Source of the DNA: Candidatus Saccharimonadota bacterium
GTDB taxonomy: Bacteria > Patescibacteriota > Gracilibacteria > BD1-5 > UBA6164
Length of the DNA: 32,000 bases
Direction: 5' to 3'
Assembly: GCA_963677765.1 (NCBI GenBank)
Contig: OY782392.1
Coordinates: 390,001-422,000 of the forward strand
A program made the translations under genes and the position numbers. Below are positions 6,262 through 32,000 of the stretch, piece after piece. The notes under the pieces are model-generated. The model was not told where the DNA came from, searched no databases, and saw only the letters and a program-made list of their open reading frames with translations. Position 1 is the stretch's first letter; the number at the start of each line of letters is the position of its first letter.

Positions 6262-6263
6262 AA

Positions 6264-6449
6264 TTAAGAATATTTATTTATAAATCTTAAATTAGAGTCT
6301 TGTTCTTTAAAATAATTCCTAGAATAAAATTCAGATTTTTTTCATATATTAAAACTAGATACAGGTCTATGATATCACATAACTCTAGTATATATTTCAC
6401 ACTTAGTTCTTGAAAATAGTTTTCATTCAGTATTAATTGATAATGACAT
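6264..6449 (-). CDS. nrdD: Stand-alone glycyl-radical C-terminal piece of class III RNR (61 aa)
   Basis: MSLSINTEGKLFSRTKCEIYTRVMGYHRPVSSFNIGKKSEFYSR.. carries the NrdD glycyl-radical signature (RVxGY..RPV..N.GK..E). It has its own ATG, in a different frame from the large nrdD ORF and 23 nt downstream of its stop. Confidence 0.8.
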
Positions 6450-6472
6450 AATTATTAAAATTAATAAATAAA

Positions 6473-8677
6473 TTATATTTTTGTTTTTTCTATATTTTTA
6501 ATTTTTTCAAAATCATCAGTATAAGTCCTTCTTGTCTCTAAATCAAATTTATCTCAACTATATCATATCTCTTCATCACATTTTGGGCAATAATCATGTT
6601 CTCAAACTATATATCAATGATTAGGACATATTGAAAATGTTGGTGAAATAGTAATATATGGAAGCTGATAATTTGAAATTACATTTTTGACAAAATTTTT
6701 ACAAGATTTACTATCTGTTAGCCTTTCTCACATATATAAATGTAAAACAGTTCATCAAGTATATTTACATTGTAATTCATTTTGTTCATCAAGTGCTTCA
6801 TAAGGATCATCTGTAAATCAAACTGGTAATTGAGATGAGTTTGTATAATAAGGAGCATCATTAGTTCATGCTTGTATAATATTTGGAATCTGTTTTTTAT
6901 CTTCTTTTGCAAATCTATATGTAGTTCCCTCTGCAGGTGTAGCTTCTAAATTATATAAATTACCTGTTTCCTCTTGATAATCTTTTAGTTTATTTCTCAT
7001 GAATTCTATAATTTCCATAGCGAATTCTTTTCACCAACTAGTTGAAATATCTTCTTTTCAAGCAGTAAAATTTAATATAGCTTCATTCATTCAATTCAAT
7101 CAAATAGTAGAAAAGTGGTTTCTAAAACTTCTTAAATATCTATAAGTATAAGGATATAATCATCTTTCAAGCCATTTTGTAACTTCTTTTCTTTTAAGTT
7201 CTAAAGATACTTTAGCTTGTTCCATTAGATATTCTACTCTTTTTTTAAAAGATTCTTTATCTCATGCTGTATTATATCAAATACGAGCCATATTAAGAGT
7301 AACCACTCATATACTTCAAGTCATTTCTGAACTACCAAATAATCAACCTCACCTTTTTTCTAATTGAGTTAAATCAAGCTGCAACCTACAACACATTGAC
7401 CTAACTGCTCATGGAGTATAAGCATCTGGATTTTTTACAGTTTCATATGTTCAATCAGATTTTTTTAATCTTTTATACTGACTTCAAACAAAATTTTGAA
7501 AATATGGAAGACCATATTTAGCTGTCATTTCAAATAAAGCATCTATATCTGGATCATCCCAAGGAAAATCTTCTGTAATATTGTATGTAGGTATAGGAAA
7601 AGTAAAAACTCTTCAATTTCTATCTCAAGCTACATAAACATCAATCAAAGCTCTATTTATTATTCTCATTTCATCTTCAAGTTCTCAATATTTTTTTTCA
7701 TAATATCAATTATCAATTCAACCTAAAAACAAAGCCTTATCCTTTAAATCATCTGGAACAGTCCAATCCAAAGTTATATTGGTAAATGGTGATTGTGTTC
7801 ACCACCTACTAGGAACATTCAATCAAAAAATAAAATTTTGCATTTGTTGATAAACATATTTATAAGTTTTATTATAAATATATTTTTCTTTTTCTTCTTC
7901 TGATTTAAAACTAGAATTTACTTCTTGTAATTCTTTTTTTATTTCTTCCTTATATTTATGTACAAATGGAGCTAAATAAGTATCAAAACTTGAAAAAGCT
8001 TGAGCTCAAGCCCATTCATTTTGTAAAGTTCATAAGAAGTTTATCATTTGATTAACAGCAGCTTGCAAATTTTTAGCTGGAGCAGAATCTACTCTTTTAT
8101 CAGATCAATTAAATCATTCTTCTAATAATTGTCTAAGACTCCAACCTGCACAATAACCAGAAAACATATCTAAATCATGTATATGAATATCTGCATTTCT
8201 ATGGAGATTTCAAATTTCTGAAGGATATATATGGCTAAGCCAATAATTAGCAGTAACTTTTCAAGAAATATTTAATATCATACCTCAAAGTGAATAACCA
8301 GAATTAGCATTAGCATTTACTCTCCAGTCTGATTTATTTAAATATTCCTCCATTGAGTCTCAAACTTCAATTACAACATTTTTATCATTTCTTAATTGAT
8401 TTCTTTTTTCTCTATAAATTATAAATGATTTAGCAACTGTATCATGACCATCTTTTATAAGAGATTCCTCTATAGAATTTTGAATATCTTCTACACTTGG
8501 TATATCTGTTCATATCTCCTCCTCTAAATATGAAATTGTTTTTTCAGTCATATCTGAAATCAAAGAAAAATCATTTCATCAAGATGCTACAATTGCTTTT
8601 TTAATAGCATTTTCTATTTTTTTTATATCAAATGTAACAATAGAACCATTTCTTTTCCTAACTTTATAAATAGCCAT
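6473..8677 (-). CDS. nrdD: Class III (anaerobic) ribonucleoside-triphosphate reductase, large piece lacking the glycyl-radical tail (734 aa)
   Basis: 735 codons. N-terminal ATP-cone (MAIYKVRKRNGSIVTFDIKKIENAIKKA). Core motifs SGYCAGWSL, FTFPIPTYN, CCRLQLD and LEATPAEG. Zn site ISPTFSICPNHGYIVGEHDYCPKC. Ends with TAA 6475-6473. Confidence 0.93.
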
Positions 8678-8702
8678 AATAGGAAATTTTAAAACAAATA
8701 AA

Positions 8703-8749
8703 AACTATATATTGTGTACACATAAATATATGATACACAATATATAGTT
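8703..8749 (-). promoter_or_regulatory. Tandem NrdR boxes (pair 1) upstream of nrdD
   Basis: aactatatattgtgta (8703-8718) is the exact reverse complement of tacacaatatatagtt (8734-8749). Centres are 31 bp apart. Both resemble the published NrdR-box palindrome acaCwAtATaTwGtgt. Confidence 0.8.
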
Positions 8750-8806
8750 TTTGCAATAAATTTTATATATTTTTATTTGACTATTATTCATTTTATTTTA
8801 ATTGGA

Positions 8807-8854
8807 AACACAATATATAGATAATATAAGTATTTTTATATACAATATATAGTA
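8807..8854 (-). promoter_or_regulatory. Tandem NrdR boxes (pair 2) between the nrdA stop and nrdD
   Basis: aacacaatatatagat (8807-8822) and tatacaatatatagta (8839-8854) are each 14/16 identical to the box at 8734-8749. Centres are 32 bp apart. The last box abuts the nrdA stop codon. Confidence 0.75.
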
Positions 8855-11467
8855 TTAACCACTACAACTATCACAACTTTTTACATCTAAACTCATAGAT
8901 CTAACATAATAAACTGTTTTTATTCATTGTTTATGAGCTTTCATGTAGTATTGATAAAGTTCTCTTGGTGATACTTTAGCAGGATCTATCATCCATTCAA
9001 AAGAAATAGATTGATCTATCCATTTATAGATAACTGAAACCATATCTATAACATCATTCATATTCATATTTACATATTCTTTGTAGTACCAAAAATTTTC
9101 TTGATCTAAATTTGGTGCTACATTAACACTAGGTGCAATTGCATTAGTTTCAACAAAGTATTTTTTATAAATAGGAAGAATTGATGCAGTTGTTCATACA
9201 ACTAAAGCTGTAGAAGTATTAGGAGCAGGAGCCAAATGATAAGCGAATCTAACTCAATCTTTTTTAATATCATCAATTAGTTTTAACCATTTATCAGACA
9301 TTTCTGAGTTATTTTTATACCAATCAGCATCTTTTCATAATAAAACTCATTTAGACCATTCTGATCATTCATATAGTTCATATGTCCCTCTTTCCGAAGC
9401 AAGTTTATTAGATGATTTCAAAGTTCTGTACGCATATTTTTCAAATAATTTATCAACTACTTCTCTAGCTTCTAGAGAATCATAAGATAATTTATTTACA
9501 GCTAAATATTCAGCTAATCATAAGAAACCTAATCAAACTGATCTATATCTTTGAGCTGTCCTTTTAGCTTCTTTTATTGGATAAAAATTTAAATCAATAA
9601 CATTATCTAAAAGTCTCATAGCAACAGGTATAACCTTTTTAATATCTTCATCAGTATTTACTTTTGCTACATTTATAGAAGCTAAGTTACATACAACACT
9701 ATCACCTGGTTCATATTTTATTACTATATTCCCATCTTCTAATTCTTCTTCCACAAATTTAGAAGTACTTGTATTTTGACATATTTCTACACATAATTGT
9801 GTTGAATATACATTTCAAGCATGTTTATTTGGATTTAAAGCATTAACTGTATCTCTAAAGAAAGCATAAGGCATTCATGTTTCTACAGTAGTTTTTAAAT
9901 ATTTTTTAAATAAATCTTTTGCTTTTATTGTTTCTTTTAATTCTAGTTCTGGATTATTTTCACATTCAACATAAAATCTTTCAAAATCTTCTCAAAAATG
10001 ATCTTGAAGTTTTTTACCTGTAACTTCAGAAATTTCTTTTGGATCAAATAAAGTCCAATCTTCATCATTAGCAACTCTCTCCATAAATAAATCTGGGAAT
10101 GTTACTGCTGGAAAAACATCAAAACTTTTTGATCTTATATCTCAAGTTTCTGTTTGTAAGTCTAAGAAACTATAAATATCTCTATGAAAAGCATCTAATG
10201 TTACTGAAATAGCTCATGCTCTAGCTCATAATTGATTTACAGCAACTGCAGTATCATTTATAACCTTAATCCATGGGTTAACACCTCAAGCAGCTCATTT
10301 TACTCATCTAATACTAGATCATTTTGATCTTATATTTCATAAATATACTCCAATACCACCTCAAAACTTTGATACTTGAGCCATATTTTCTATAGAATGA
10401 TAAATAGCTCTTAAATCATCATCAACATTAAATTTGAAACAACTAGATAATTGATGAAAATTAGTTCTAGCATTTAACAAAGTAGGTGTTGGTAAAGATA
10501 TTTTTCAAGTAGCACAGTAGTCATATATTTTTTTAGCAACTTCTAATCTTTTTTCTTTTGGTTCAGGTATAGCCAAAAATAATGCTGCACTCATATACAT
10601 TTCTTGAGGTAATTCTTTTGTTACTTTATTTGGATTTAAAAGATATCTTTTTTTATACATCAAAACAGTTGTATAATTATATTCAAAGTCATATTCTTTT
10701 TTTAAATAACTTCATGCTTCCAATATATCTTCTTCAGTGTAATAATCATAAAAATTTTTATAATACTTTCCTGATTTTATATATTCATCAAATAAACTTT
10801 TATAATGTTTAGATTCATAAATTTTTTTAATATCCATATTTCTATTATATGAAGCTTCTTTATATAAATCTATCAAAGCAAGTCTACCTGCTATAAATTG
10901 CCATGATGTATTTTCAACACTAACTAAATCAACTGCTGACTTAATAAGCATTTTTGTTATATCTGAAGTTTTCATACCTTCTACAATATATTTTTTCAAA
11001 CTATCCGAAATCTCTTCAAATCTACATTTTCTTGCTAATCAATAAGAAACAATTTTGTATGTTTTTCTTACTTTTTCTATATCAAAGTTTTCTTTTTTTC
11101 AAGTAGTTTTAGTTATTTTAAATGTATTTTTTTCAAGCTTTTTTTCTACTTTTTCTTTTTGTTTTTCTCTTATTTTAGATCTTTCATTTCTATAAATAAT
11201 AAAATGTTTCATTACTTCAAAATGCCCTTCTTTCATAAGAACTCTTTCTATTTGATCTTGAGCCATTTCTATAGTGATAACAGCTTCTCATTCACAATCG
11301 TCTAAATAATTAGATAAATTTTCTATAACTTTATCTGTTACATCATCAACAAAATCAAAATCATTATTTCAAATAGCTTCAGCTGCTTTTTCTATAACTC
11401 TTTCTATTCTTGTTCTATCAAAGTTAACTAAATCCCCCTCTCTTGTTTTTATAAATTTCACTTCCAT
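8855..11467 (-). CDS. nrdA: Class Ia ribonucleotide reductase alpha (R1) subunit (870 aa)
   Basis: 871 codons. N-terminal ATP-cone (MEVKFIKTREGDLVNFDRTRIERVIEKA), which implies class Ia rather than Ib. Active-site region ..SVVCNLASINV.. (ORF-track fragment). C-terminal redox Cys pair ..KSCDSCSG. Confidence 0.95.
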
Positions 11468-16221: not shown

Positions 16222-19047
16222 ATGATATTTGATCCTTCAAAACTAAACTTAAATGTTGAAGAAGATAATGAAAATAACTGATTAAATCAGGAATTTAAAA
16301 ATGAAAAAAAAGAAGAAACTAAAATAGAAAAACCTGAAATAAAAAAAGAAGTTGAAACTCAAAATGATGTTTTAGCTGATTTAAATATTGAAAAAAATGA
16401 AAACAATGAAAATCAAATTACAGAAAAAGAAGATGTAAATGCTTTTAATGATATAAAATTGGAAAATAAAGAAAAAACTGAAGAAACTCAAAAAGAAGAA
16501 AAAGAAGTGGAAGAAAATAATGTAGAAAAAGAAAGTGAAGAAAAAAAAGTAATTTATGATATAAACATAAATTCAATTAAAGATGTTTTAACATTATTAA
16601 TAGATAAATGATATGATTTTGTTACTTTTGAACCAGATGAAACAAGTGTAAAAATAAACTTTAGAAAAGATAAAGTAATAGTTGATACTAGATATATAAA
16701 ATACCCTATATATTCTAATATATTGATAAAAACAAAAAGTTTATCAAAATTAAAGGTAGAAGAAACACAAAAAGAACAAGAATGAGTATGAGAAGCAAAT
16801 ATTAGAAATAAATGATACGATGTATTAACAAAAGTTGTACCTTGAGCTTTTTGAGAAAAAATGTTCATAAAAGCAAAAGAAAAAAAGAAAAAAGTAGCAA
16901 AAAAAGAAACAAAAAAAATGAGCTTATCACAAATAATGACTTTTTTATGAGCTTTAGCATTTATATGACTTATTGTTTGAGGTTCTTTTATATGATTTAT
17001 AGCTATGAATGCAAAAACAGTTGAAGATGTTAAGTTTTTTGCTTCATTATGAATAAATTTAAATGAAATTAATAATTTTATATCGTCTTCGATAACAATT
17101 ATTTTTTCTACATTAGTATTCTTTGAAACAGCTGTTTTAATTATGTTACTTTTTAAATTCGCTCTTACAAAAAAAGAATTTAAACAAAAGAAAATAAAGT
17201 ATTGAATACTTTCTACTGTTGTTTTAATAATGACATTTTCTACAGCATCAGCTTGGATGATAATAGATAGAAAAGTAAATTCATTACCAAATTGGCAAGA
17301 AATGGCATTATGAGAAATTCAAATTTTTGATAATGCAAAACTAATAAGTGAGCAATTTGATAAAGTATGATCAATAGTACAAGATACTTCTAATTTGATT
17401 TGACCAGTAGAGTTAAAATTTGATTTATGATTTTTTCAAGATTCACAAGAAGCAAAATGATATAAGATAAATAAATATATATGGGATTTTTGATGAGATG
17501 ATATAGTTGAAACTCCTCTATCAAATATAATAAAAAGATTTGATAAAAAATGAATAAATGAAGTTACTTTAACAGTTATGCAAGAAGATATACAAGGTAA
17601 TATAATTGAAAAAGTAATAGAAGATATTCCAAGTATAAACATATCTTATTTAGTTGATATGAATGAAAGAGACCTATGAAATTGAAGTAAACAAGTTACT
17701 CTTAATGCATCTAGCTTAAGTGAATTATGAAATATAGAATGGTACTTAATGGATAATTTAGAAAAACCTGTATCTGAATCTGAAACATATATAACAAGAC
17801 CAATTTTTGAAGAAACATTAATAGGAATGTATATAAGAAACTCTGATAAAGAATCTGAATTATTAGATAAAATATTCATAATAAAATCAATAGAAAAATG
17901 AGAAATAGAAGCAGAAATTGATTTTCAAAGATGAATAGTAAATGATATGGAATATACATTTAAGATATCTAATATAGAAAGCTGAGAATGAAGAGGTTTT
18001 ATTGAAACATTTGAATGGAAAATATGAGATAAAGAATATACTAGAAAATGAGATGTAACTAATCAAGAAAAATCTAGTGAAATAAAACATATTTTTGAAA
18101 ATTATTGAGACTATACAATATCTGTAAAACTAACAAATACTTTTTGAGATATAAAAACTCTTACAAAAGAAATAAATATACCTAAAAAATTAAAAATAAC
18201 TAAGTGAATTGATATATTTGCAGATGATATAATAATAGAATCTGTTGACTACAAACAAAACTTAAATGAATATATGTTAAATAATATAGGTATACCAAAT
18301 TCAATGAAGTTTGATGCTAGATTTATAGAAATTGATTCTGATTTATATACTTTAAAAACAGTTAATTGGGATTATGACTCTGATTGAGATAATGACTTTA
18401 GCTGAAGAGTATGAGAATATAGCTTAAATTCTGAATGAAACCATACAATAACACTTAATGCTATTTTTGAACATAGAAAAATTGATGGTGAAATAATAGA
18501 AGTAGAGCAAAAAATATATATTGAAGCTGTTCAAAAAGAAGCAATTTTAGACTTTTTAATAAGCAAAAATAGTGAGTATGTTCCTGTGGTTGTATGATTT
18601 GATGCTTCCAGAGCAAAAGTAAAAGATTCTAATATTGCAAAATTTATATGGGATTATGGTGATGGTGAAACAGAAGAAAGAGATGCTATTGTACCATGAC
18701 ACATATATACAAAAGCTTGAGAATATGAAGTAAAACTTACAATATTAACAAGTGATTGAAAAAGATATTCAACAACAAAAAACCTTATATTAAAACCTAA
18801 AGCTCAAACAATAAGTATAAAAGCAAGTATGAAAAATGCTCCAGTATACCAATGAATTGACTTTAGTTCTGAATGATCTGATTGACAAATATCATCTTAC
18901 TTTTGGGATTTTGGCGATGGTGAAACTTCAACAAAAGCCAACCCAACACATGCATATAAAAAAGCATGAGATTACAAAGTAAAATTAAGATTAGATTTTG
19001 TTAATAGAAATGTTTTAAGAGAAGAAATAGATATTAGTATATACTAA
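16222..19047 (+). CDS. Large membrane protein: acidic/Lys-rich N-terminus, PilB/GspE-type N-domain without ATPase, TM helices, about 5 PKD-like repeats (941 aa)
   Basis: 942 codons. Residues around 125-230 read ..LIDKGYDFVTFEPDETSVKINFRKDKVIVDTRY..ILIKTKSLSKLKVEETQKEQEGVGEANIRNKGYDVLTKVVPGAFGEKMFIKA, the pattern that precedes Walker A in PilB/GspE (..DIHxEP..xRxRxDG..SRxKxxAxLxIxExRxPQDGR..RVSxxPxxxGEKxVxR). No Walker A follows. Hydrophobic segments follow instead (LGALAFIGLIVGGSFIGFIAM, ITIIFSTLVFFETAVLIMLLF, ILSTVVLIMTFSTASAWMII). The C-terminal part has PKD signatures WDFGGDD.., WDYGDGETEERDAIVPGHIYTKAGEYEVKL and WDFGDGETSTKANPTHAYKKAGDYKVKL. Confidence 0.8.
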
Positions 19048-19077: not shown

Positions 19078-19774
19078 AGTATTTTATTTCTAATGACTTT
19101 ATATTTCATGAAAAACCAATATCTTCTAAATTAAATTTTAATACTTTAGCAATAGTTAATGCTAGAATTTTTTCTTGCTTAATAGAATCTGATAAAAATT
19201 CTATATTTTTATCATTAAAATTTTTGATATAAATTCATGCTATAGATCATCTATTTATTCACTTAAACATTGCTTTATTTTGTCATGATTCTCTAACAGG
19301 AGGAACAAAAAAGATTTCTTTTTTCATAGCTTTATAATCACTTCACCTCCATATAAGATTTTCTATATTAACAGAAACTGTAACCAGAGCTTCTTTAAAA
19401 TCAGGGATAAAACAATTAACATCTTCTCTTAGATAACCTAATTCTTTATAATAATTTTCCAATATATCTAACTCTTCTTTTAGAGTAATTCAAACAATAT
19501 GAATTTTTTTATTATTAGAAATAGAATAATCAAATAAAGATTGGAAAATCTCAAGCTCATCCTTTGGTGAATAAACTTCACTATACATTGCAAATTTTCA
19601 ATTTAAATTGCTTAATAGTTCAGTATTCTCTTTTTCTTTTAAAAGTTCTGAAATATAAAAAACTTCAATATTATCTGATGAGTAATTACAATCTAAATAA
19701 TCAAATAAAAATTTATTATCAAATTTATCTGTTGCTTCTATGTTTAATATTTTATCTCTATAAACTTTCTTCAT
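19076..19774 (-). CDS. Hypothetical protein (232 aa)
   Basis: 233 codons from ATG 19774 to TAA 19078-19076. The start overlaps the end of the upstream rnhB-queH ORF by 17 nt in another frame. No family assigned. Confidence 0.6.
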
Positions 19775-21017
19775 TATTTTTTTCTTTTAATTTATCTAAA
19801 AATTGTTGTTTTCAACCTGGATATGTATCACTATATATACACCCACAATAATTTTGTCTATAAATATTATGTTTTTTAGTATATTCAACACTTCTTTCAA
19901 AACCTTTATTTTTTCTAAAAGCTATTTTAAAAAAATCTAGTTTTTCTTTTAAGGATTCTCATGATTTTTCATCAAAAGTTTCTTGTATAGACCATTTATC
20001 TCATAGAGAAAACATTTTTTCTAAATCTTTATGAGGTGAAGTATTTAGAGTAGAAGTCCAGTATTTGATACCTAATCTTCTAGCTTCTAAAGCACTTCTT
20101 TTAAGTCTCATGTCATAACATTTAGTACATTTTTCTCATTTTTCAGGAGTAGCTTCTAGTCACTTAATTTCATTAAAAAAATTATGAACATCATATTCTC
20201 ATTCTATATATTCAACTCATTCAATTTCACAAACTTTTATAAGTTCTCCTAATCTTTTATCATGCTCTTTTTTTGGTTGAATATTTGGGTCATACCAAAA
20301 ACATATTACTTCATATTCCTTTTTTAAATCCATAATAGGTACAGTTGCATCAGGTCAACAACATATGTGAAGTAATAACTTTGGTTTCTTATTTAATACT
20401 TCTTTTACTGGTTTATAGCTAAGTCTATGAATACTAGTGACTTTTGATTTATCACTTAAATATTCTTTATGTTTTTTAGTACCATATCATTTATGATTTT
20501 CTATAGATAAATCAGGATATAAAAGACTATATTGAGACATCAATTTATCTCTAAATACTTTAGCAATTATAGATGCTGCTCATATTTCCATTATTTTTCA
20601 GTCTCAACCTATTATAAAAATGGGATCTCTTTCTAGCTCTTCAAATTTATAATTATCATTTCAATCTATAAGCACTGAAGCTATATCTTCATTTGGTATT
20701 TTTCTTAAAAGTTCCACAAGACTTCTTCTCATAGCTTCCCTATTTGCTTTTTTGATATTTATTTCATCAATTAAATGATTATCAACAACTCAAACTCAAA
20801 AAAATAATTTTGGATTATCTCATCTTGAATATTCTATTAACTCTTTAAATAATTTTTCTCTTTTAATTTCTGTTAACTTTTTAGAGTCATTCAATCTAGA
20901 CAAAAAATCCTTGTCTGGCATGTTATTTGGATTAAAACAAAGACTACAGGCAACTACACTTCAAAGCCATGGTCATCTTCAAGCCTCATCTATTCATATT
21001 TTATACTTAAGTGGCAT
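19758..21017 (-). CDS. Fusion protein: RNase HII (N-terminal) + DUF208/QueH epoxyqueuosine reductase (C-terminal), 419 aa
   Basis: 420 uninterrupted codons. The N-half has IGIDEAGRGPWLGSVVA, DSKKLT, VLIDGN, GGDGKIMEIGAASIIAKVFRD and NHKGYGTKKH..HRLSYKP (RnhB). Without a stop it continues KKPKLLLHICCGPDATVPI..FWYDPNIQP..CTKCYDMRL..YWTSTLNTSPHK..QNYCGCIYS (QueH). Confidence 0.88.
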
Positions 21018-21109
21018 ATTATTTTTCATTTTGAAAGATATTTTTATTTTTAAAATATACAATTTCAAATATAATAACGACAACTTAAAAATAAACAATA
21101 AAAATTATA

Positions 21110-24177: not shown

Positions 24178-24798
24178 TTATTTTTTGATAACTAAAGGAT
24201 TAGCATCATTTCAATTGGCTACACATGTATTAGATGCTCAAGCAGGAGTAACACAAGAAAAAGCATTAATTGTTGAAGGTATTCCATTTGCAATTGATAC
24301 TTCTGTAGTTTTAACATGAGATCATTGACTATCATCTAAATCTAATCAGATTTCTAATCTATAATCATCATCTCATCCATCAGTTTCAGCTCTATTTGTA
24401 ATATTACCATCATTTTCAAAATGAGTAGAAATTTCATATTCTTGTAAAGGAATAGTATTTCTATCTGGACTTACGTTATATAGATAATCAAAAACTGAAT
24501 TTTCACTAGCATTAGTAGTTCTAGGATCTTCTGGTACTCATGATTGTAAGTAAACACCTATTCATGTAGTTGTATCACCAAAAGATGTACTTTTTGTAGG
24601 ATAATTAGTTGTATCTTGATAAAATTGTTCTATTGCATTTCTAAGTGCATTTAAGTCAGAAATTCTAGTAGAGTCTCTTGCTTTTTGTAACTGAGTTGTA
24701 AATACATTAACTGCACCAGTAGCAAGTATACCCATTATAGTTATTACTACTAGTAACTCTATAAGAGTAAATGCTGATTTTCTTTTTTGTAATTTCAT
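24178..24798 (-). CDS. Type IV pilin-like protein with prepilin-type N-terminal cleavage/methylation domain (206 aa)
   Basis: 207 codons. MKLQKRKSA-FTLIELLVVITIMGILATGAV class III signal peptide. The ORF-track 78-aa fragment continues through TGA codons to TAA 24180-24178. C-terminal Cys pair CVTPAGASNTC. Confidence 0.9.
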
Positions 24799-25221: not shown

Positions 25222-25376
25222 GGTCAGTCAAAGTGTTTGTGTTCCTTATTCAGGAATAATTATTAAGGGCCCATCTATCATTTTTGAAAAAAGATATTCA
25301 ATTCTCAGCAAATAGATTACCAAGAACCCCTAAAGGCTTTAACATGTGTAAGGAAAAATTAGATTGACCTGCCACC
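25222..25376. ncRNA. Candidate structured RNA, either an sRNA or a cis-regulatory leader; class and strand unresolved
   Basis: This is the only non-coding stretch with visibly raised G+C. Nested complementary pairs: 25222-25229/25362-25369, 25242-25248/25349-25355, 25263-25271/25335-25342 and 25273-25278/25312-25317, plus an inner hairpin. The short ORFs here use G/C-ending codons atypical for this genome. It is flanked by a promoter-like site and a hairpin-T8 on the minus strand. Confidence 0.45.
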
Positions 25377-25394
25377 TATAAAATAGACATAATC

Positions 25395-25422
25395 ATTATA
25401 ATTCTTTGTAAATATTTGTAAA
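25395..25422 (-). promoter_or_regulatory. sigma70-like promoter reading into the structured element (minus strand)
   Basis: Minus strand: TTTACA (complement of 25417-25422), 16-nt spacer, TATAAT (complement of 25395-25400). Confidence 0.4.
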
Positions 25423-25433
25423 ATTTATATAAT
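25406..25433 (+). promoter_or_regulatory. sigma70-like promoter of ybeY
   Basis: TTGTAA (25406-25411), 16-nt spacer, TATAAT (25428-25433). It interleaves with the divergent minus-strand promoter. Confidence 0.45.
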
Positions 25434-25469
25434 AAAAAAAGATAATATTTATTAATAATTAATAATAAA

Positions 25470-25910
25470 ATGTTTAGCTATAAACTAATAAACAAGCCAA
25501 AATTTAATATAAATACAATTCATATTGACTCTATATTTAAAAGTATTTCTAATATAGTAGACATAAAACAAAAATGACTACTAAATATAGTATTTTTAGA
25601 TGATGATAGTATAAAAAATTTGAACAAAAACTATAGAAATATAGATAAAACTACGGATGTTTTAAGTTTTCATTATTTCGAAGATTTTTCAAATATTGAT
25701 GAAAATGAAACTGCATGAGAGATAGTGTTATCTGAATCAAAAATAATGAGTCAATGAAAAGAATATTGACTATGAGAAGAGCATGAATTTTACAAACTTA
25801 TAATACATTCTGTCCTTCATATATTATGATATGATCATGAAGAAGATGATGAATATATAGTTATGAATAACTTAGAAAACAAGATATACAAAGAAGTATT
25901 TGAAAAATAA
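25470..25910 (+). CDS. ybeY: rRNA maturation endoribonuclease YbeY (146 aa)
   Basis: 147 codons. TDVLSFHYF and the zinc motif HSVLHILGYDHE. Confidence 0.92.
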
Positions 25911-25927
25911 GATAGATTTGATATAAT
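25900..25927 (+). promoter_or_regulatory. Extended -10 promoter candidate for the PrgI-like operon
   Basis: TTGAAA (25900-25905), 16-nt spacer ending in TGa, TATAAT (25922-25927). It overlaps the last ybeY codons. Confidence 0.4.
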
Positions 25928-25964
25928 AAATGAAATTAATTTAATTTATATACTTTCATATTTT

Positions 25965-26381
25965 ATGCAATATAAAATACCTGTACAAATAGAAAATGAA
26001 GATCCTATATTGTTATGACTTAGTGGTAGGCAACTTGCAATAATAATGATATGAGGTTGAATATGATATTCTATATTTCAATCATTAGCTCCAGTTTTAT
26101 GAAATACTGTAGCACTATTCCCTGCTTGAATAATTTTAGCTATAGCAGTATGAATAGCTGTAATAAAAGTTTATGAAATGACTTTTTTAAGGCTAGTTTT
26201 AGCTTTTATAAGATACAAAGTAAACTTAGACACTAGAAAATGGACAAAATGAGTAGATAGTTTTTCTGCAATGGATATTTGATTTATTAGTTATAATGAA
26301 AATAAAGCAGAACAAAAAATAGATACTAAATCTAAAATAGATAAAATAAAAGATTTAGAAGAAAACTTAAATAAAATTTAA
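25965..26381 (+). CDS. PrgI/VirB3-like small membrane protein (138 aa)
   Basis: 139 codons. MQYKIPVQIENEDPILLGLSGRQLAIIMIGGGIGYSIF.. matches the PrgI-family N-terminal pattern (xxVPxxIxxEDKIxxGLTxRQL, then two TM helices). Confidence 0.65.
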
Positions 26382-26399
26382 AATATAAATTAAAAAAAG

Positions 26400-27107
26400 G
26401 TGGCTGTAAAAACAAATAAAAAAGATCATCCTGATAGTTCAACTCAAAGATATTTGCCTTTTTCATGAATAAAAGAAAATATCATGATAATGAAGGATAA
26501 TAGTGCTAGATTAGTAATGAAATGTTCAACAATAAATTTTTTATTAAAAAATACTGATGAGCAAGATGCTATAATAATGAGTTTTCAGAGGTTTTTAAAT
26601 TCTTTAGACTTTCCTATTCAAATAATAGTAAGATCAAAAAAATTAGATATTGATAGTTATTTATCAAGATTAAATGATAAAGCTTTGAATCAAACAAATC
26701 CTTTGTTACAAAATCAAACTTATGAATATATTGAATACTTAAGAAAACTAATTGAAGTTGCTCAAATAATGAAAAAAGAATTTTATGTTGTTATACCATT
26801 TGATATGGAAGCAAATAAAAGTGTAAAAGATGATACTTTTCTATGAGTATTTCAAAGTTTTTGGAAATCAATAAACCAATGACAAGATATTTCTAATATA
26901 AAAACTCAATTAAGAAATTTTTCAAAACTAAAAAAAGGATTAAACTGAAGAGCTAATTGAGTCAAAACAAGTCTTGAAAATATATGAATAAAAGCTGAAG
27001 CTTTGACAAAACAAGAATTAGTAAAATTTTTGACAGATTACTATAATCCAAAACTTGATTCTTTGGAAACTATTTGAGATATAGAAAATTATAATATAAC
27101 AAAATAA
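26400..27107 (+). CDS. VirB4/TraC-like N-terminal domain protein without ATPase domain (235 aa)
   Basis: 236 codons. GTG start (frame opens after TAA 26391-26393; aaagg precedes it). TQRYLPFSGIKENIMIMKDNSARLVMKCSTINFLLKNTDEQDAIIMSFQRFLNSLDFPIQIIVRSKKLDIDSYL resembles the N-terminus of Gram-positive/CPR VirB4-type conjugation ATPases. It ends at TAA 27105-27107 with no Walker A. Confidence 0.55.
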
Positions 27108-27109
27108 TA

Positions 27110-27472
27110 ATGAAAAAATATTTTTTTTATGCACTAGCATTTATTTCTAGTTTTAATTATTCATATGCAAATAATCCTAATACATGACTATTATGATGAT
27201 CATGAATTTCTAGTGATGATATAAGAAACTGAAATATTCACACGGAACATATTCCATGAATAATAAAATGAATTATAGACTTTTGAATATGAATAGCATG
27301 AACGGTTGCAGTTATATTTATTATAATTTGAGCATATCAAGTACTTCTATGATCATTAGAACAAGACAAATCTAAATGAAAAAATACTATTTTTATGGCA
27401 ATTATGTGATTTATAATAGCAAGTTTAGCTTGGTTTATTATAAGATTAATAATAGATAATTTTTGAGGATAA
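27110..27472 (+). CDS. T4SS pilin-like (TrbC/VirB2-type) small membrane protein (120 aa)
   Basis: 121 codons. Signal peptide MKKYFFYALAFISSFNYSYA. Then IPGIIKGIIDFGIGIAGTVAVIFIIIGAYQVLLGS..KSKGKNTIFMAIMGFIIASLAWFIIRLI: two TM helices separated by a short basic loop. Confidence 0.6.
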
Positions 27473-27502
27473 TAACACTATTTTAATTAGTGTTATTTTT
27501 TT
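27471..27502 (+). terminator. Rho-independent terminator after the pilin-like gene
   Basis: aataacacta (27471-27480) pairs with tagtgttatt (27488-27497), followed by a T-run to 27502. Confidence 0.7.
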
Positions 27503-27592
27503 ATTTTTAATTTTATTAAATATAATAAAAAACAAAAAGATTTGAAATCTAACTATTTTTTTTAAAACATAAAATTTTTTTAATCTTTTATT

Positions 27593-27621
27593 TTGACAAA
27601 TACTCTTTATTGTTTTATAAT
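27593..27621 (+). promoter_or_regulatory. Perfect-consensus sigma70 promoter
   Basis: TTGACA-aatactctttattgttt(17)-TATAAT, 29 nt upstream of the ATG at 27650. Confidence 0.6.
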
Positions 27622-27649
27622 AGAAATGTTTAAAAGTAATTAATCAATT

Positions 27650-28477
27650 ATGGTAAATACTCCTAACAATTCTCCTGAAAATAATAATAACATTGAAAAT
27701 AATGATAAAGGGACTTTAACTAGAATTGCAGAAGCTACAAAAACTAAAACTACTGCAGCTCTTTGAGCTCTAGCTTTAGCTACTACTCTAAACTTTAGTT
27801 CTCCTGCTCAAGCTGCTGAAACTAATATTCCAAAGTGAGCTATTCCTGTTGAAATACTAAAAGATACTAAACTTACTGATATACCTTTGGGTGCAAGAAA
27901 AGTTAATTTTAGAAATTCTGAAATTTTTGTTTGGAAAAACGAAAACTGAACTTTTTCTATGCAAATAACAAAAATGGATCAAGATTCTTGAACTGATGAT
28001 ATACATTTTGAAGCTAATGTTGCTTGAGAAAATTATGTATTCTCTATATCTTGAGATGACTCATTAGAGCAAATCCTTATTGCTGAAAAAGCTCCTGAAA
28101 GACAATCTCAGTTTGGTATAAACTATGATAGAATGACTAGAGGTAATTATATTATAAAAAATATTATGCTTAGTGCTGAAGCTAGATTAGCTGAGTATTT
28201 TAAAGAAGTTAAATGATATAATAAATCTCAAATATCAGATGAATTAAGTTGAATAGCTAGATTATTTTGAAGAGACACAATTGATAGAATAACTTTTGAA
28301 GACTTTAGAGCAGCTTATCCTGAAATATTAACTTCTCTTTCTTATCTAGATCAAAATAGATTTCCTAATCTTTATGAAGTAGGATTAAATCAAAGTTATA
28401 ATGAAGAAGGTAATAGATTAGACGAAGAAGGTAATAGATTAAGCAATATAATTAATAAACTATCATGAAATAAATAG
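27650..28477 (+). CDS. Secreted hypothetical protein (275 aa)
   Basis: 276 codons. Asn-rich N-terminus, then signal-peptide-like TKTTAALGALALATTLNFSSPAQA-AE. C-terminal tandem EEGNRLD/EEGNRLS. No family recognised. Confidence 0.7.
28403..28441 (+). repeat. 21-nt period tandem duplication inside the CDS
   Basis: gaagaaggtaatagatta occurs at 28403-28420 and again at 28424-28441. Confidence 0.85.
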
Positions 28478-28500
28478 TTTTTTGCTTATTAAATATAATT

Positions 28501-30273
28501 ATGATAAGATATTATAGTAATATAACTATAATATCTTTTTTTATGGTTGAATCTCCTAATAATTATGAAAATTTAAGCAATCAAACTGAATCAAATGAGA
28601 ATTCAGAATTTTTAGAGTCTATAAATAATGACATAAAATCAATTCCTCAAGAACTTCAAGAATTATCAATAAAACAAATAGAAAAATACAAAAATTCCCC
28701 ACAGTCATCAAATGATGAATATGATTTATTAGATTCTATAGATGCTATAAAATCTATAGAATCTATAAAAAATTCTAATGACTGATATAAAGAATTTATA
28801 GATTTATTAAATAACTCTGAAAATTTAGATTGATTGTACTTAATAATGCTTAGTAAAAAAAATGATATTGATAATTATATAAAAAATAACTGATTCCCTA
28901 TAAATCAAGAAACTCTAGATGCTTTTAATAAAAATTTTTGATTAGATATAAGTTATATAAAAAAAGAAAATGAAGAAAAAGTAGAGCAAAATGAAGAAAA
29001 AGTAGAGCAAAATAATAGAAAAAAAGAAATTCTAAACTCAATAAAAAATCAACTAATAAAACATGAGGAAGAGTTTATAGATATAAATGATGAAGAATGA
29101 AATAATTTTATAGATTTATTAAACAATATTGAAAATACTGAAAGCCAAAAAAAATTAGAGGCTTTATTATCAAATCAAGAAAACCTAAATAATATACTTA
29201 GTATATTACAAGAAATAGATAGAAAAGAAGGTATAGATAGCTATTCTCCTGAAAGTAGTTATTCAAAATTCACATCTAAACTTATAGAGTTAAATCCTAG
29301 TTTTGAAGCAAAAATAAAATCTTTTGAACAAAAAGAAAATTATAATAATTTTTTAGGTATAACAGACTCTACTACTGCTAGAATATACGCTTGATTATGA
29401 ACAGAAAATCCTGATGTAGAGTGAAATATTTTCAAAAACTGAGATGTAAGTATAGATATATCAAAAAGACCTCCTCAAAGAATATTATGAGATAAAAACT
29501 TTAGTTTAGAACTAGATTTACCTATATGAGATTTCTACCCAGATATACTTGAGCATGAAAGAAGCAATCAATTAATAAAACCTCAACTAAATAGTATTAA
29601 TGTATTATTACAAAACAGAGACTATATTGATGATATGCTGGAATCAAACTTGGATATTAATCAAATAAAAACAAATCTAAAAAACACACTTAATATTGAA
29701 ATGAGTAATATAAATACTAAAGAAGATTTAAGTGAAGATAATTTATTAAGATTAAAAAATGAACTAGAAAATAAACTAAATCAAAGTAATCAAGATTTAA
29801 AGCAAGCTTTAAGAAAAAAAATTAATGAATACAGAAGAAATTTAGAACAAAAAGATAGATTAACTCGTGAAACTTATAAGTTTTTAAAGTCTATAGGTTT
29901 TGATAAAATACCTCAAAGTATAACTAACAATGTAATACAACAATTAAATTCCAATTCAGGATTGAGATCAAGTTTAGGAATGACTAGTGAAATTGATTTA
30001 AGTAATGGTAATCTATGATTTGATAGTGATTTTGATGAAAACAATATAACATCACAAGAAAAAGCTGATTTTTCAAAGGTATTTAATATAATGTTATCAT
30101 GAAATGAAGAATGACCTATAAATACAGATGCTATACTAAATGACAGATGAACTCCTATAAGTGATTATACAGTATTTGAAAACTTTTTAGAAACAAACAA
30201 ATTAAGAGATACTTGATTTGCAAGTAAAATAATGATTGATAATATAAGAAGTAATAATAATGAAAACAAATAA
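28501..30273 (+). CDS. Large Asn/Glu/Lys-rich hypothetical protein with coiled-coil-like stretches (590 aa)
   Basis: 591 codons. The ORF-track fragments at 28501 and 29635 share this frame and are joined through TGA=Gly codons. The start could alternatively be the ATG at 28543. No catalytic motif recognised. Confidence 0.7.
28972..29013 (+). repeat. Perfect 21-nt tandem duplication inside the CDS
   Basis: gaagaaaaagtagagcaaaat occurs twice in a row (28972-28992 and 28993-29013), encoding EEKVEQN x2. Confidence 0.9.
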
Positions 30274-30304
30274 AAGGATAGCTAAATAGCTATCCTTTTA
30301 TTTG
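30272..30304. terminator. Hairpin shared by convergent genes
   Basis: aaaggatagc (30273-30282) pairs with gctatccttt (30289-30298). It overlaps both stop codons. The flanking U-runs are weak. Confidence 0.5.
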
Positions 30305-30778
30305 TTGGTCCAATCTAGAATTTAGTCTTTTTAAGGCTTCTAAAAAATCAAAGTTTTGAAAATCAAAATATATTTGCTCATTTCAAAAACCCAAGTATCA
30401 GATTTTTTCATTCATTATAGTATTAACTATATAATCAATTGCATCATCTTGAATTATAAAATATTTTCTAAAAGTATCTTTTATTAATTCTTGTTTTTTA
30501 GGGTATTTAAATTCAATAAATCATAAGATAGCATTAACAGCTTCTCAAGACTCTTCTATAAGCTTTTTAACTACAAAATCTAGTTCAGAATAATTTAATC
30601 TATTGTTATCAAAATCTTCATCTAAAAAAACTTTTAGATAAGAGTTATTAATATCATCAACAGTTATATCAGTATTTTTTTCTAAAAAGTTATTTAATTC
30701 TAAAAAACTTAATTTTGAGTTTTTTTCATCTATTTCAAGCTCATCAAAACCTCAAAATATTTTTACTCTTTCTGACAT
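30290..30778 (-). CDS. Acidic hypothetical protein (162 aa)
   Basis: 163 codons from ATG 30778 to TAG 30292-30290. Rich in D/E/F/N, with no hydrophobic segment. No family recognised. Confidence 0.65.
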
Positions 30779-30783
30779 AAAAT

Positions 30784-30824
30784 ATATTATTATATTATAG
30801 ATAAAATCTATAATATAATAATAT
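30784..30824. repeat. 41-bp perfect palindrome (19-bp arms, 3-nt centre)
   Basis: atattattatattatagat (30784-30802), aaa, atctataatataataatat (30806-30824). It starts 6 nt upstream of the ATG of the 162-aa gene, in the divergent intergenic region. Confidence 0.9.
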
Positions 30825-30936
30825 CATCATTTGTCAACGAAATATACTAAGAATTTTAATATAATGCTAAAATATTTTTATTTGAAAAATACAATTTATA
30901 GTTATAATTAATAAAATTATTTTCAAAATTAAAATT

Positions 30937-31398
30937 ATGGATAACTTAATTTATAAATGGACTTTTTCTGATAACAAAAACAGAGGTAAGTTTTGGTACA
31001 TAATAGCAATTTCAATTGTTTTATGAATAGCTATTTGGTGAGTTTTAACTAAACAATATTGATTAACTATAATAATACTACTAGTAGCATGAGTTACTTT
31101 TTTTATAGAAAATAATTCAGCTGAAATAATAGAAGTAAAAATAAGTGACTTGTGAATAAAAATTTGAGAATATTTTTATGATTATCATAAAATAGAAAAG
31201 TACTGATTCATATATAATTGAGAAAATGCTCAATTTTTAAGAATTTATCTAAATAAATCAGCTCTAAAAAATATAGATTTAAAAATTGATAATAAAATAT
31301 GCCAAGATTTAAAAAGTATTTTAGCTCAATATTTAGAAGAATCAGAAAAATCTGAATTAAGTTGATCAGAAAAGTTAATTAATTTCTTAAAACTATAA
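30937..31398 (+). CDS. Hypothetical membrane protein with 2 TM helices (153 aa)
   Basis: 154 codons. ..KFWYIIAISIVLGIAIWGVL..GLTIIILLVAGVTFFI, then a soluble domain. No family assigned. Confidence 0.65.
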
Positions 31399-31401
31399 AA
31401 A

Positions 31402-31797
31402 ATGAAAATATTATTATCAATATTCTTTAATGCCTTAATACTATATCTTCTAGCTTTTTTCTTATGAGAAAATACTTCTCTATGAGTTGAATCAGGAATA
31501 ATAGTTGAATGAGGATATATAACATACATAATATGATGAGCTATATTGTGAATTATAAATGTTACTATTAGACCAATATTAAAAATATTATCACTACCTT
31601 TCTTCTTTATATTTTTATGACTTGTTGTACTTTTCATAAATGCAATAATTTTATGGTTATTAGATTATATTTTTAATCAAATTCTTGTTATTCCAGGGAT
31701 TTCTTATGATATAAATTGAGCTGTAAATTTTGTAATTGCTGTTGCAATTTTTACAATTTTGAATATGTTTTATACATTATTATTTAATAAAAAATAG
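31402..31797 (+). CDS. DUF360 / phage-holin-family-4-like membrane protein (131 aa)
   Basis: 132 codons. MKILLSIFFNALILYLLAFFL..GAILGIINVTIRPILKILSLPFFFIFLGLVVLFINAIILWLL fits the pattern of that family (..N..irPil..lslP....tlG.f.lviNa..l). Confidence 0.7.
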
Positions 31798-31801
31798 AAA
31801 A

Positions 31802-32000
31802 ATGATTGAATTACTAAAATTTAGTGAAGTTATTATAGCTGTTATGCTTATTTTTATTGTTTTAATACAAAACAAAAATGTTACATTAAGCCTTACTGAT
31901 ATGAGTGGTGGTATGGGACAAGCAACAAAAAGATGACCAGAAAAAGTATTACATAATACTACTATAATACTTGGATCATTATTTGTTTTAAATTCATTAG
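31802..32000 (+). CDS. secG: Preprotein translocase subunit SecG (partial, runs off window end)
   Basis: MIELLKFSEVIIAVMLIFIVLIQNKNVTLSLTDMSGGMGQATKRGPEKVLHNTTIILGSLFVLNSL: a TM helix ending in LIQ, a Gly-rich loop, then a second TM helix. Confidence 0.8.

What the first reader, a model, noticed from the sequence alone, without database searches (positions are those of the whole stretch)
25965..30273. Minimal T4SS-like module (PrgI/VirB3-like, VirB4 N-domain, T4SS pilin) followed by two secreted or repeat proteins, with no ATPase, coupling protein or relaxase
Downstream of ybeY, three co-directional genes separated by 18 and 2 nt encode:
- a PrgI-family two-TM protein
- a protein resembling only the N-terminal part of VirB4-type conjugation ATPases
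- a signal-peptide-bearing two-TM TrbC/VirB2-like pilin

They are followed by a terminator. Next come a perfect-consensus promoter, a 275-aa protein with a signal peptide, and a 590-aa Asn/Glu/Lys-rich protein.

No VirB4 ATPase domain, VirD4, VirB6/TrbL, relaxase, integrase or repeat boundary is visible within this window. The neighbours are core genes (ybeY, secG). This therefore looks like a chromosomal, domesticated surface-filament or contact apparatus rather than a conjugative element. For an obligate episymbiont or predator lineage, such a stripped-down module plus cargo-like secreted proteins could be a host-interaction system that has not been characterised.
Basis: partly seen in the sequence, partly recalled or inferred. 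Interest (0 to 1): 0.75.

Follow-up and report, generated by a model that had tools for sequence, protein, structure and literature searches.

The report
Gracilibacteria type IV secretion sub-cluster
These three genes are a real, highly conserved part of the chromosomal type IV secretion system already described in Patescibacteria (CPR) bacteria, while the two 'cargo' genes after them are a recent lineage-specific insertion.

Summary
Read with UGA = Gly, three tightly packed genes after ybeY encode a PrgI/VirB3-like two-TM protein, a 235-aa protein equal only to the N-terminal domain of long VirB4 ATPases (TrsD/TraC-like), and a signal-peptide VirB2-like pilin. A terminator, a perfect consensus promoter and two orphan genes follow.

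The trio is not an uncharacterised stripped-down apparatus. It is the PrgI + TrsD + VirB2-like-pilin part of the relaxase-less chromosomal T4SS described for Patescibacteria in 2023-2025. Those papers note that in the GTDB class Gracilibacteria these genes lie away from virB4.

Across 80 species-level genomes the three genes are present in 79, 80 and 80. They usually lie between ybeY and G-holin-secG, and B is as conserved as SecG, so this is not a decaying remnant. NCBIfam alignments show TrsD-like proteins and short (~600 aa) VirB4s cover complementary parts of long VirB4 models, so B should work with a VirB4 encoded elsewhere.

D, E and F are absent from most relatives and fill a variable pilin|G junction.

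One puzzle remains: a complete related genome (28_42_T64) keeps the trio but is listed VirB4-negative. I could not test this.

The parts
25470..25910 (+). ybeY (endoribonuclease); conserved upstream neighbour
   Evidence: PF02130, 111 bits. Found upstream of gene A in 60 of the 80 loci, median gap 50 nt.
25900..25927 (+). Promoter-like site upstream of gene A (TTGAAA-16-TATAAT, 11/12, with a TG extended -10)
   Evidence: This is a consensus match only, so function is inferred.
25965..26381 (+). Gene A: PrgI/VirB3-like small protein with two TM helices (138 aa)
   Evidence: PF12666, 44.4 bits against a cut-off of 27. Hydrophobic segments at about residues 15-33 and 40-82. Present in 79 of 80 loci, median identity 55%.
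26400..27107 (+). Gene B: TrsD/TraC-like protein, a stand-alone homologue of the N-terminal domain of long VirB4 ATPases (235 aa, no P-loop, no TM helix)
   Evidence: NF045975 positions 93-233 of 894, E = 2.5e-13, and NF041427 TrsD, E = 2e-4. PF26593 on its homologues. AlphaFold model pLDDT 84.2 with its top 14 PDB matches all TrwK/VirB4. Complementary alignment with short VirB4s. Present in 80 of 80 loci, median identity 67%.
27110..27472 (+). Gene C: VirB2-like T4SS pilin (120 aa) with a signal-like N-terminus and two TM helices
   Evidence: PF18895, 38.7 bits against a cut-off of 26.6. NF045849 Mbov_0395 pilin-like, E = 6.5e-5. TM segments at 50-85 and 92-119. Present in 80 of 80 loci.
27466..27510 (+). 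Intrinsic-terminator-like hairpin and T-run ending the A-B-C unit
   Evidence: -10.4 kcal/mol, z = -4.77, 0 of 200 shuffles fold as well.
27473..30936 (.). Lineage-specific 3.46 kb insertion (D, E, F and their signals) at the pilin|G junction
   Evidence: The median C-to-G gap in 76 loci is 14.5 nt. D, E and F are found together only in L008; L009 has D and an E N-terminal fragment; L023 and L026 have distant E-like genes. No flanking repeats.
27593..27621 (+). Perfect sigma-70-type promoter match (TTGACA-17-TATAAT) upstream of D
   Evidence: 12/12, the only perfect match in 25300-32000.
27650..28477 (+). Gene D: 275-aa orphan with a signal-peptide-like segment
   Evidence: No Pfam or NCBIfam family. 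Homologues occur only in L008 and L009, duplicated in both (tandem in L009; the two L008 copies lie about 3 kb apart).
28501..30273 (+). Gene E: 590-aa Asn/Glu/Lys-rich, predicted all-helical orphan
   Evidence: Only 5 clusters among 5.8 billion proteins. Distant relatives (27-31% identity) sit at the same junction in L023 and L026. The AlphaFold model is poor (pLDDT 51.8) and helical.
30265..30306 (.). Bidirectional terminator hairpin between the convergent genes E and F
   Evidence: 19-pair stem. Perfect 20-nt arms, pair I9.
30290..30778 (-). Gene F: 162-aa orphan on the opposite strand, part of the insertion
   Evidence: No family hit. The only homologue is in L008. An 11/12 promoter match lies at 30837-30810 on the minus strand.
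30937..31398 (+). Gene G: 153-aa protein with a two-TM hairpin and a DUF5673-like domain. It is the ancestral neighbour directly after the pilin. Function unknown, and not shown to be a T4SS part.
   Evidence: Follows C in 76 of 80 loci. Sub-threshold DUF5673 hits in 8 of 10 orthologues. No credible counterpart in plasmid T4SS clusters.
31402..31797 (+). Gene H: Phage_holin_4_2 family membrane protein, followed by secG (from 31802); conserved downstream context
   Evidence: PF04020, 54.9 bits. H found in 65 loci and secG in 64.

Best explanation
Genes A, B and C are the PrgI/VirB3-like, TrsD-like and VirB2-like-pilin components of the chromosomal, relaxase-less type IV secretion system that is typical of Patescibacteria. 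That system derives from the conjugation machinery of monoderm bacteria (MPF-FATA class).

B corresponds to the N-terminal domain that long VirB4 ATPases carry within one chain. In this system the domain is a separate protein, and the remaining ~600-aa 'short' VirB4 is encoded by another gene. That gene is adjacent in most CPR classes and on Firmicutes plasmids, but unlinked in this lineage.

Likely mechanism (inferred):
1. PrgI sits in the membrane and binds TrsD, as VirB3 binds the VirB4 N-domain in R388.
2. Together they dock the short VirB4 hexamer.
3. VirB4 extracts Sec-inserted, signal-peptidase-processed pilin from the membrane to build a short surface filament or channel.
4. This structure serves contact with, or transfer to or from, the host cell.

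D, E and F are not part of this machine. They are a fast-evolving, independently transcribed insertion at a variable junction after the pilin gene.

Shown here: family identities, the complementary domain relationship, conservation, synteny and insertion status. Inferred: the physical PrgI-TrsD-VirB4 complex, pilus formation and the host-interaction role.
For: Family identities: PrgI and T4SS_pilin score above the Pfam cut-offs. B matches the N-terminal part of the VirB4 model NF045975 (E = 2.5e-13) and weakly matches TrsD. Its fold model best matches TrwK/VirB4.

Complementarity: TrsD-like proteins align to NF045975 positions 92-284 and to NF045971 positions 1-171. Short VirB4s from CPR and plasmids align to positions 267-892 and 167-735.

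Ancestral and CPR contexts:
- Peribacillus pOM18 has the order pilin-like, VirB3-like, TrsD-like, VirB4, lysozyme, a 177-aa protein, TrbL. Pontibacillus is similar.
- In another CPR lineage the TraC-like gene overlaps a 603-aa VirB4 by 4 nt.

Stand-alone family: 2,131 representative clusters have E <= 0.001, and the top 150 are all about 100-450 aa.

Conservation in this lineage: A, B and C are present in 79, 80 and 80 of 80 species-level loci. B has a median identity of 67%, against 66% for SecG and 62% for YbeY, and the intergenic gaps are short.

Literature:
- PMC12102498 describes VirB4 + TrsD + PrgI/VirB3 + VirB2-like pilins without a relaxase, and says the TrsD and VirB3 genes are not near virB4 in the GTDB class Gracilibacteria.
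- Its Table S1 lists HOT-871 and GN02-872 as VirB4-positive.
- The T4SS and its pilins are essential for epibiotic growth of Southlakia (PMC10633639; PMC12857230).
Against: - No VirB4 was found in the window or within +-10 kb of the locus in any of the 80 related genomes. I could not search whole genomes.
- Table S1 of PMC12102498 lists the complete genome 28_42_T64, which has the intact locus (my L043), as VirB4-negative. Two draft genomes are also negative.
- A profile-profile comparison of the B family with the N-terminal regions of CPR short VirB4s is not significant. This is expected if TrsD matches a domain that the short VirB4 lacks, but it adds no support.
- The NCBIfam TrsD and VirB4 hits are far below the whole-protein cut-offs.
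- Foldseek TM-scores are modest (at most 0.46), and the tool does not report which VirB4 residues were aligned.
- The modelled protein (P0001) carries Trp at the seven UGA positions where Gly is correct.
- No experiment exists for any Gracilibacteria T4SS.
- The source paper's statement concerns the GTDB class 'Gracilibacteria', whereas HOT-871 and its relatives are GTDB class JAEDAM01. For this lineage the unlinked arrangement rests on my own synteny analysis.
Confidence: 0.8

Rival explanations
1. An autonomous, ATPase-less minimal apparatus. PrgI, TrsD and the pilin form a surface filament or contact structure that no longer needs VirB4, VirB6 or VirD4.
For: The genes are unlinked from any ATPase in all 80 loci. 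The trio is very strongly conserved. The complete genome 28_42_T64 keeps an intact trio yet is listed VirB4-negative. VirB6 is reported as undetectable in the GTDB class Gracilibacteria.
Against: Five of the eight JAEDAM01 genomes whose rows I could read are VirB4-positive, including complete HOT-871 with the identical locus. B is the detached N-domain of VirB4 and matches in-chain fusions in Mycoplasma and CD1110-type VirB4s, which predicts a partner ATPase. Every characterised T4SS needs VirB4 (PMC12102498). A single HMM-negative call could reflect divergence.
Confidence: 0.1
2. A decaying remnant of an integrated conjugative element or plasmid T4SS.
For: Homologues of all three genes occur in plasmid conjugation clusters of Firmicutes. 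Only part of the gene set is present here.
Against: The ORFs are intact and present in the same conserved chromosomal block in 80 species-level genomes, with B as conserved as SecG. There is no integrase, relaxase or coupling protein, no repeats, and no GC anomaly. No B relatives occur on IMG/VR contigs.
Confidence: 0.02
3. D and E are dedicated substrates, adhesins or tip proteins of the T4SS, so the five genes form one functional unit.
For: All E-family genes found lie directly after the pilin gene, in four separate lineages. Small proteins with signal-like N-termini precede them in L026 and in the window. The genes evolve fast, D is duplicated, and the promoter is strong. E has no signal peptide or TM helix, which would fit non-Sec export.
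Against: D and E are absent from 76 or more of the 80 species. They are separated from the pilin gene by a terminator and have their own promoter. My loci are all centred on B, so the apparent positional association is biased. No family or fold could be assigned. The G|H junction is also a variable insertion site and holds unrelated genes.
Confidence: 0.12

Closest known systems
Patescibacteria T4SS (Southlakia epibionticum ML1, SEML1_0006-0019; survey in PMC12102498)
   Same: It has the same components: PrgI/VirB3, TrsD and VirB2-like pilins of family PF18895. It is also chromosomal, has no relaxase, and derives from the monoderm MPF-FATA class.
   Different: In Southlakia all parts lie in one cluster with VirB4, VirB6 and an array of six pilins, and they are shown to be essential. 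Here there is a single pilin. The three genes are embedded between ybeY and secG, and VirB4 is not within 10 kb in any relative.
TrsC-TrsD-TrsE type conjugation clusters of Gram-positive plasmids (pGO1 subclass; Peribacillus pOM18 and a Pontibacillus megaplasmid seen here)
   Same: The order small two-TM protein then TrsD-like protein, with pilin-like genes nearby. The B family HMM hits the plasmid TrsD-like proteins at E = 2.5e-30 and 5.5e-17. The pOM18 protein hits the NF041427 TrsD model at E = 4e-26.
   Different: On the plasmids a VirB4 gene follows immediately, together with a peptidoglycan hydrolase and TrbL/VirB6, inside a plasmid backbone. The window protein itself scores only 21 bits on the TrsD model, against a cut-off of 200.
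Mycoplasma ICE conjugation genes (Mbov_0395 pilin-like, Mbov_0397 VirB4) and Clostridioides CD1110-type VirB4
   Same: B aligns to the N-terminal positions of these long VirB4 models, and C aligns to the pilin-like model.
   Different: In those systems the TrsD-equivalent domain is part of the VirB4 chain, and the genes are on mobile elements.
R388 TrwM/VirB3 - TrwK/VirB4 inner-membrane complex (PDB 7O41, 7O42, 7O43, 8RTB, 8RTD)
   Same: The best structural matches of the B model are TrwK/VirB4 chains. VirB3 binds VirB4 1:1 in this complex (PMC12857230), and that is the model for PrgI-TrsD.
   Different: It is a diderm system with an outer-membrane core and a single-chain 823-aa VirB4. Sequence identity is 6-12% and TM-scores are at most 0.46.

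Membership tests
Patescibacteria-type T4SS (PMC12102498) | PrgI/VirB3 homologue | tested here: met
   PF12666, 44.4 bits against a cut-off of 27; two hydrophobic helices.
Patescibacteria-type T4SS (PMC12102498) | TrsD homologue (remote homologue of the VirB4 N-terminal portion) | tested here: met
   NF045975 positions 93-233, E = 2.5e-13. PF26593 TraC-like on the 97%-identical P0001 and on orthologues. Fold matches to VirB4. HMM link to plasmid TrsD-like proteins.
Patescibacteria-type T4SS (PMC12102498) | VirB2-like pilin (PF18895 or PF04956) | tested here: met
   PF18895, 38.7 bits against a cut-off of 26.6.
Patescibacteria-type T4SS (PMC12102498) | VirB4 ATPase in the same genome (the hallmark of any T4SS) | not testable with these tools
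   Absent from the window and from +-10 kb in 80 relatives. Table S1 of the paper lists HOT-871, GN02-872 and three more as Yes, and 28_42_T64 (complete) plus two drafts as No.
Patescibacteria-type T4SS (PMC12102498) | VirB6-like polytopic membrane protein | tested here: not met
   No TrbL/VirB6 domain in any window protein. The paper reports VirB6 as absent or undetectable in the GTDB class Gracilibacteria.
Patescibacteria-type T4SS (PMC12102498) | Chromosomal location without a relaxase | tested here: met
   The neighbours are core genes, there is no relaxase domain, and the block is conserved in 80 species.
Conjugative element / ICE | Relaxase, coupling protein, integrase and element boundaries | tested here: not met
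   No such domains. No boundary repeats. No compositional shift.
VirB4 ATPase family | P-loop ATPase domain (Walker A and B motifs) | tested here: not met
   B has no Walker A motif. B is 235 aa and covers only N-terminal model positions.
NCBIfam NF041427 TrsD/TraD family | Score at or above the curated cut-off (200 bits) | tested here: not met
   21.3 bits, E = 2e-4. B is therefore homologous but not a member by NCBI's criterion.
Pfam PF04956 TrbC/VirB2 | Score at or above the gathering cut-off (27.9 bits) | tested here: not met
   12.9 bits. The pilin belongs to the sister family PF18895 instead.

The most novel reading that the evidence does not exclude
In at least some members of this lineage (for example the complete 28_42_T64 genome), the universally retained PrgI-TrsD-pilin trio works without a canonical VirB4. 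It would be powered by another ATPase or be ATPase-independent. The variable gene cassette directly after the pilin gene (D/E-type proteins) would encode lineage-specific proteins that this apparatus displays or delivers to the host.
Probability: 0.08. Interest if true: 0.75.

Novelty: already known. Interest (0 to 1): 0.3.

Why it matters
The function of the Patescibacteria T4SS is an open question. It is essential for epibiotic growth in the one species tested, but it has no relaxase, so it is probably not used for conjugation.

This locus adds little that is new in kind. It does give three useful details:
1. A clear sequence argument that TrsD is the detached N-terminal domain of VirB4. This predicts a two-chain ATPase docked by PrgI.
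2. Evidence that in UGA-recoded Gracilibacteria the PrgI-TrsD-pilin genes are held in a conserved core-genome block and are as conserved as SecG, even though they are unlinked from virB4.
3. A variable junction after the pilin gene that accumulates fast-evolving orphan genes.

The reported VirB4-negative complete genome that keeps the trio is a cheap and well-defined check.

Tried and rejected
1. Direct search for a VirB4 in this lineage.
- A large-database search with the ATPase core of a CPR VirB4 returned only hits of at least 67% identity from other CPR classes.
- So VirB4 presence rests on the literature.

2. A profile search of the B family against PDB sequences found nothing. The single-sequence search gave only chance hits, such as GerM.

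3. hhalign of the B family against the N-terminal regions of CPR short VirB4s was not significant.

4. I first read TrsD as one half of a split VirB4. I then rejected that on seeing that the 603-aa VirB4 has its own pre-Walker region. I finally restored it in refined form: the NCBIfam alignments show that TrsD and the short VirB4 cover complementary parts of long VirB4 models.

5. The AlphaFold model of E was too poor (pLDDT 51.8) to justify a fold search. The correct table-25 sequences could not be submitted, so the models used database sequences with Trp at UGA positions.

6. G as a T4SS component was not supported. Its DUF5673 hits are sub-threshold, and it has no credible counterpart in plasmid T4SS clusters.

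7. The mobile-element reading was rejected. There are no flanking repeats, no B relatives in IMG/VR and no integrase.

8. Look-ups of P0001 and P0391 to identify the near-identical 1.05 Mb genome failed.

Full report
**Genetic code and gene calls.** The window has 23% GC and cannot be read with the standard bacterial code. Table 11 gives 6 ORFs of at least 100 aa, while tables 4/25 give 38. UGA encodes glycine: both glycines of SecA's invariant Walker A motif MKTGEGKT, and four glycines of LRGRAGRQGDPG, are TGA codons. Under table 25 the genes are ybeY 25470-25910, A 25965-26381, B 26400-27107, C 27110-27472, D 27650-28477, E 28501-30273, F 30290-30778 (minus strand), G 30937-31398, H 31402-31797, and secG from 31802.

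**Family assignments.**
- A is a PrgI-family protein (PF12666, 44.4 bits, cut-off 27) with two hydrophobic helices.
- C is a T4SS_pilin (PF18895, 38.7 bits, cut-off 26.6) with a signal-like N-terminus and two TM helices. It does not reach the TrbC/VirB2 cut-off. It weakly matches the Mycoplasma ICE pilin-like family NF045849.
- B gave only a sub-threshold TraC_F_IV hit in the local Pfam copy and nothing against PDB sequences. Several other lines identify it:
  - Its homologues carry the precomputed Pfam PF26593 'TraC-like'.
  - Residues 4-132 match positions 93-233 of the 894-position VirB4 model NF045975 at E = 2.5e-13, and B weakly matches the TrsD/TraD model NF041427.
  - An AlphaFold model of the 97%-identical P0001 (pLDDT 84.2, pTM 0.74) has TrwK/VirB4 chains from R388 as its 14 best PDB matches (probability 0.97-1.00, up to 229 aligned columns), and nothing else comes close.
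  - B has no Walker A motif.

**B is a member of a large stand-alone family, not a truncated gene.** An exhaustive search found 2,131 representative clusters with E <= 0.001. The top 150 are all about 100-450 aa and none is a full-length VirB4. The closest 120 relatives are 234-238 aa, 68-97% identical, and those with a source name are labelled Gracilibacteria.

**What B corresponds to.**
- In another CPR lineage the TraC-like gene overlaps by 4 nt a 603-aa DUF87/P-loop_TraG protein. JGI names its relatives VirB4.
- On Firmicutes plasmids, B homologues (HMM E = 2.5e-30 and 5.5e-17) lie in conjugation clusters. Peribacillus pOM18 has the order pilin-like (78 aa), VirB3-like (111 aa), TrsD-like (227 aa), VirB4 (658 aa), lysozyme, a 177-aa protein, TrbL. 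A Pontibacillus plasmid has two pilin-like genes, a 779-aa polytopic protein, a VirB3-like gene, a TrsD-like gene, VirB4 and a peptidoglycan endopeptidase.
- The NCBIfam alignments are complementary. TrsD-like proteins cover NF045975 positions 92-284 and NF045971 positions 1-171. The short VirB4s cover NF045975 positions 267-892 and NF045971 positions 167-735.
- TrsD is therefore the N-terminal domain that long VirB4s (Mycoplasma ICE and CD1110 types) carry within one chain, and the short VirB4 begins where TrsD ends.
- This explains why hhalign between the B family and the N-terminal regions of short VirB4s finds nothing. It also predicts that TrsD works together with a short VirB4.
- VirB3 binds VirB4 1:1 in R388, and the same is modelled for PrgI-PrgJ (PMC12857230). 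The conserved PrgI-TrsD adjacency fits a PrgI-TrsD docking unit. That step is inference.

**Synteny.** I fetched 80 species-representative loci and analysed them with table-25 ORF calling.
- A, B and C occur in 79, 80 and 80 loci.
- G follows C in 76 loci, with a median gap of 14.5 nt.
- H, secG and ybeY were found in 65, 64 and 60 loci. Many contigs are short.
- Median identities to the window proteins are B 67%, SecG 66%, YbeY 62%, H 58%, A 55%, C 53% and G 51%.
- No locus has a VirB4 within +-10 kb.
- The trio is thus a fixed, strongly constrained part of the core genome. It is not an ICE remnant: there is no integrase, relaxase or coupling protein, no flanking repeats, no compositional shift, and no relatives on IMG/VR contigs.

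**D, E and F are an insertion.**
- Among the 80 loci, D is found in two (L008, L009; duplicated in both, tandem in L009), F in one, and E in four.
- E has only five clusters among 5.8 billion proteins. It also has distant relatives (27-31% identity over 363-531 aa) at the same pilin|G junction in L023 and L026.
- The 3.46 kb insert carries its own signals: the terminator after C (-10.4 kcal/mol, z = -4.8), the perfect promoter at 27593-27621, an 11/12 promoter for F, and a bidirectional terminator between E and F.
- No family was found for D, E or F.
- The AlphaFold model of E is poor and all-helical.
- The idea that D and E are T4SS cargo cannot be excluded, but the only evidence for it is their position.

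**Literature.**
- PMC12102498 (2025) surveyed 3,035 Patescibacteria genomes. It found VirB4 in 2,417 of them, with TrsD (the most abundant component), PrgI/VirB3, VirB6 and VirB2-like pilins (PF18895 and PF04956). Relaxases were usually absent and the location was chromosomal.
- That paper states that TrsD and VirB3 homologues of the GTDB class Gracilibacteria are exceptions, because they are not near virB4, and that VirB6 is absent or undetectable there.
- PMC10633639 showed that the Southlakia T4SS and its pilins are essential for epibiotic growth. PMC12857230 reviews the system.
- The finding is therefore already known in kind.
- Table S1 of the 2025 paper lists HOT-871 (complete genome, same locus) and GN02-872 as VirB4-positive. 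It lists the complete genome 28_42_T64 (my L043, with an intact trio) as VirB4-negative. I could not resolve this discrepancy.
- Caveat on names: HOT-871 and its relatives are GTDB class JAEDAM01, so the paper's remark about 'Gracilibacteria' may not formally cover them. For this lineage the unlinked arrangement rests on my own analysis.

**Verdict.** The trio is a genuine, constrained sub-cluster of the known Patescibacteria T4SS. B is the detached VirB4 N-domain. The 'cargo' genes are a lineage-specific insertion. The one open point is whether every genome that holds the trio also holds a short VirB4.

Noticed in passing
L043 (CP042461.1, Gracilibacteria 28_42_T64), 9566-11091: This complete genome keeps intact PrgI, TrsD and pilin genes, yet Table S1 of PMC12102498 lists it as lacking VirB4. 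Either a divergent VirB4 was missed or the trio can persist without one.
   Followed up: partly
window 26400-27107 and database proteins P0001, P0391-P0395: Public database translations of this lineage carry Trp at UGA codons (table 4). SecA motifs show that UGA = Gly. These mis-translated sequences had to be used for structure prediction.
   Followed up: yes
window 30937-31398 (gene G): A 153-aa protein with a two-TM hairpin and a sub-threshold DUF5673-like domain follows the pilin gene in 76 of 80 species. It is tightly packed with a holin_4_2-family gene and secG. Its function is unknown, and it has no counterpart in plasmid T4SS clusters.
   Followed up: partly
L031, L034, L045, L046, L049, L069, L082 (G|H junction): A second variable insertion site lies between G and the holin-family gene in 7 of 65 loci. 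The two inspected (L046, L082) hold unrelated genes, for example an apparently MiaB-like (radical-SAM) gene judged from its N-terminal sequence.
   Followed up: partly
L008 11240-17836 and L009 1232-2762: In the closest relatives gene D is duplicated, and a 62-aa fragment of the E N-terminus sits between the copies. This indicates recent rearrangement of the cassette.
   Followed up: partly
window 30784-30824: A perfect 19-nt inverted repeat (ATATTATTATATTATAGAT / ATCTATAATATAATAATAT, 3-nt spacer) lies in the divergent F-G intergenic region and overlaps the promoter-like site for F. It may be an operator.
   Followed up: no
window 19758-21098 (minus strand): A single 446-aa ORF combines RNase HII (residues 34-230) with epoxyqueuosine reductase QueH (residues 241-424). 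In HOT-871 QueH is a separate 210-aa gene.
   Followed up: no
window 16222-19047: A 941-aa protein has a weak match to the N-terminal domain of T2SSE (type II/IV secretion ATPases), TM helices and three C-terminal PKD domains. It is conserved in HOT-871.
   Followed up: no
window 3962-11467 (minus strand): Ribonucleotide reductase genes are clustered: class I small and large subunits, the class III NrdD and its activase NrdG, and the repressor NrdR. This is notable in a reduced genome.
   Followed up: no
window 24178-24798 (minus strand): A type IV pilus-type pilin (N_methyl motif, T2SSG-like) lies just upstream of ybeY and is conserved there in 34 of 80 loci. It belongs to a different pilus system from the T4SS pilin.
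   Followed up: partly
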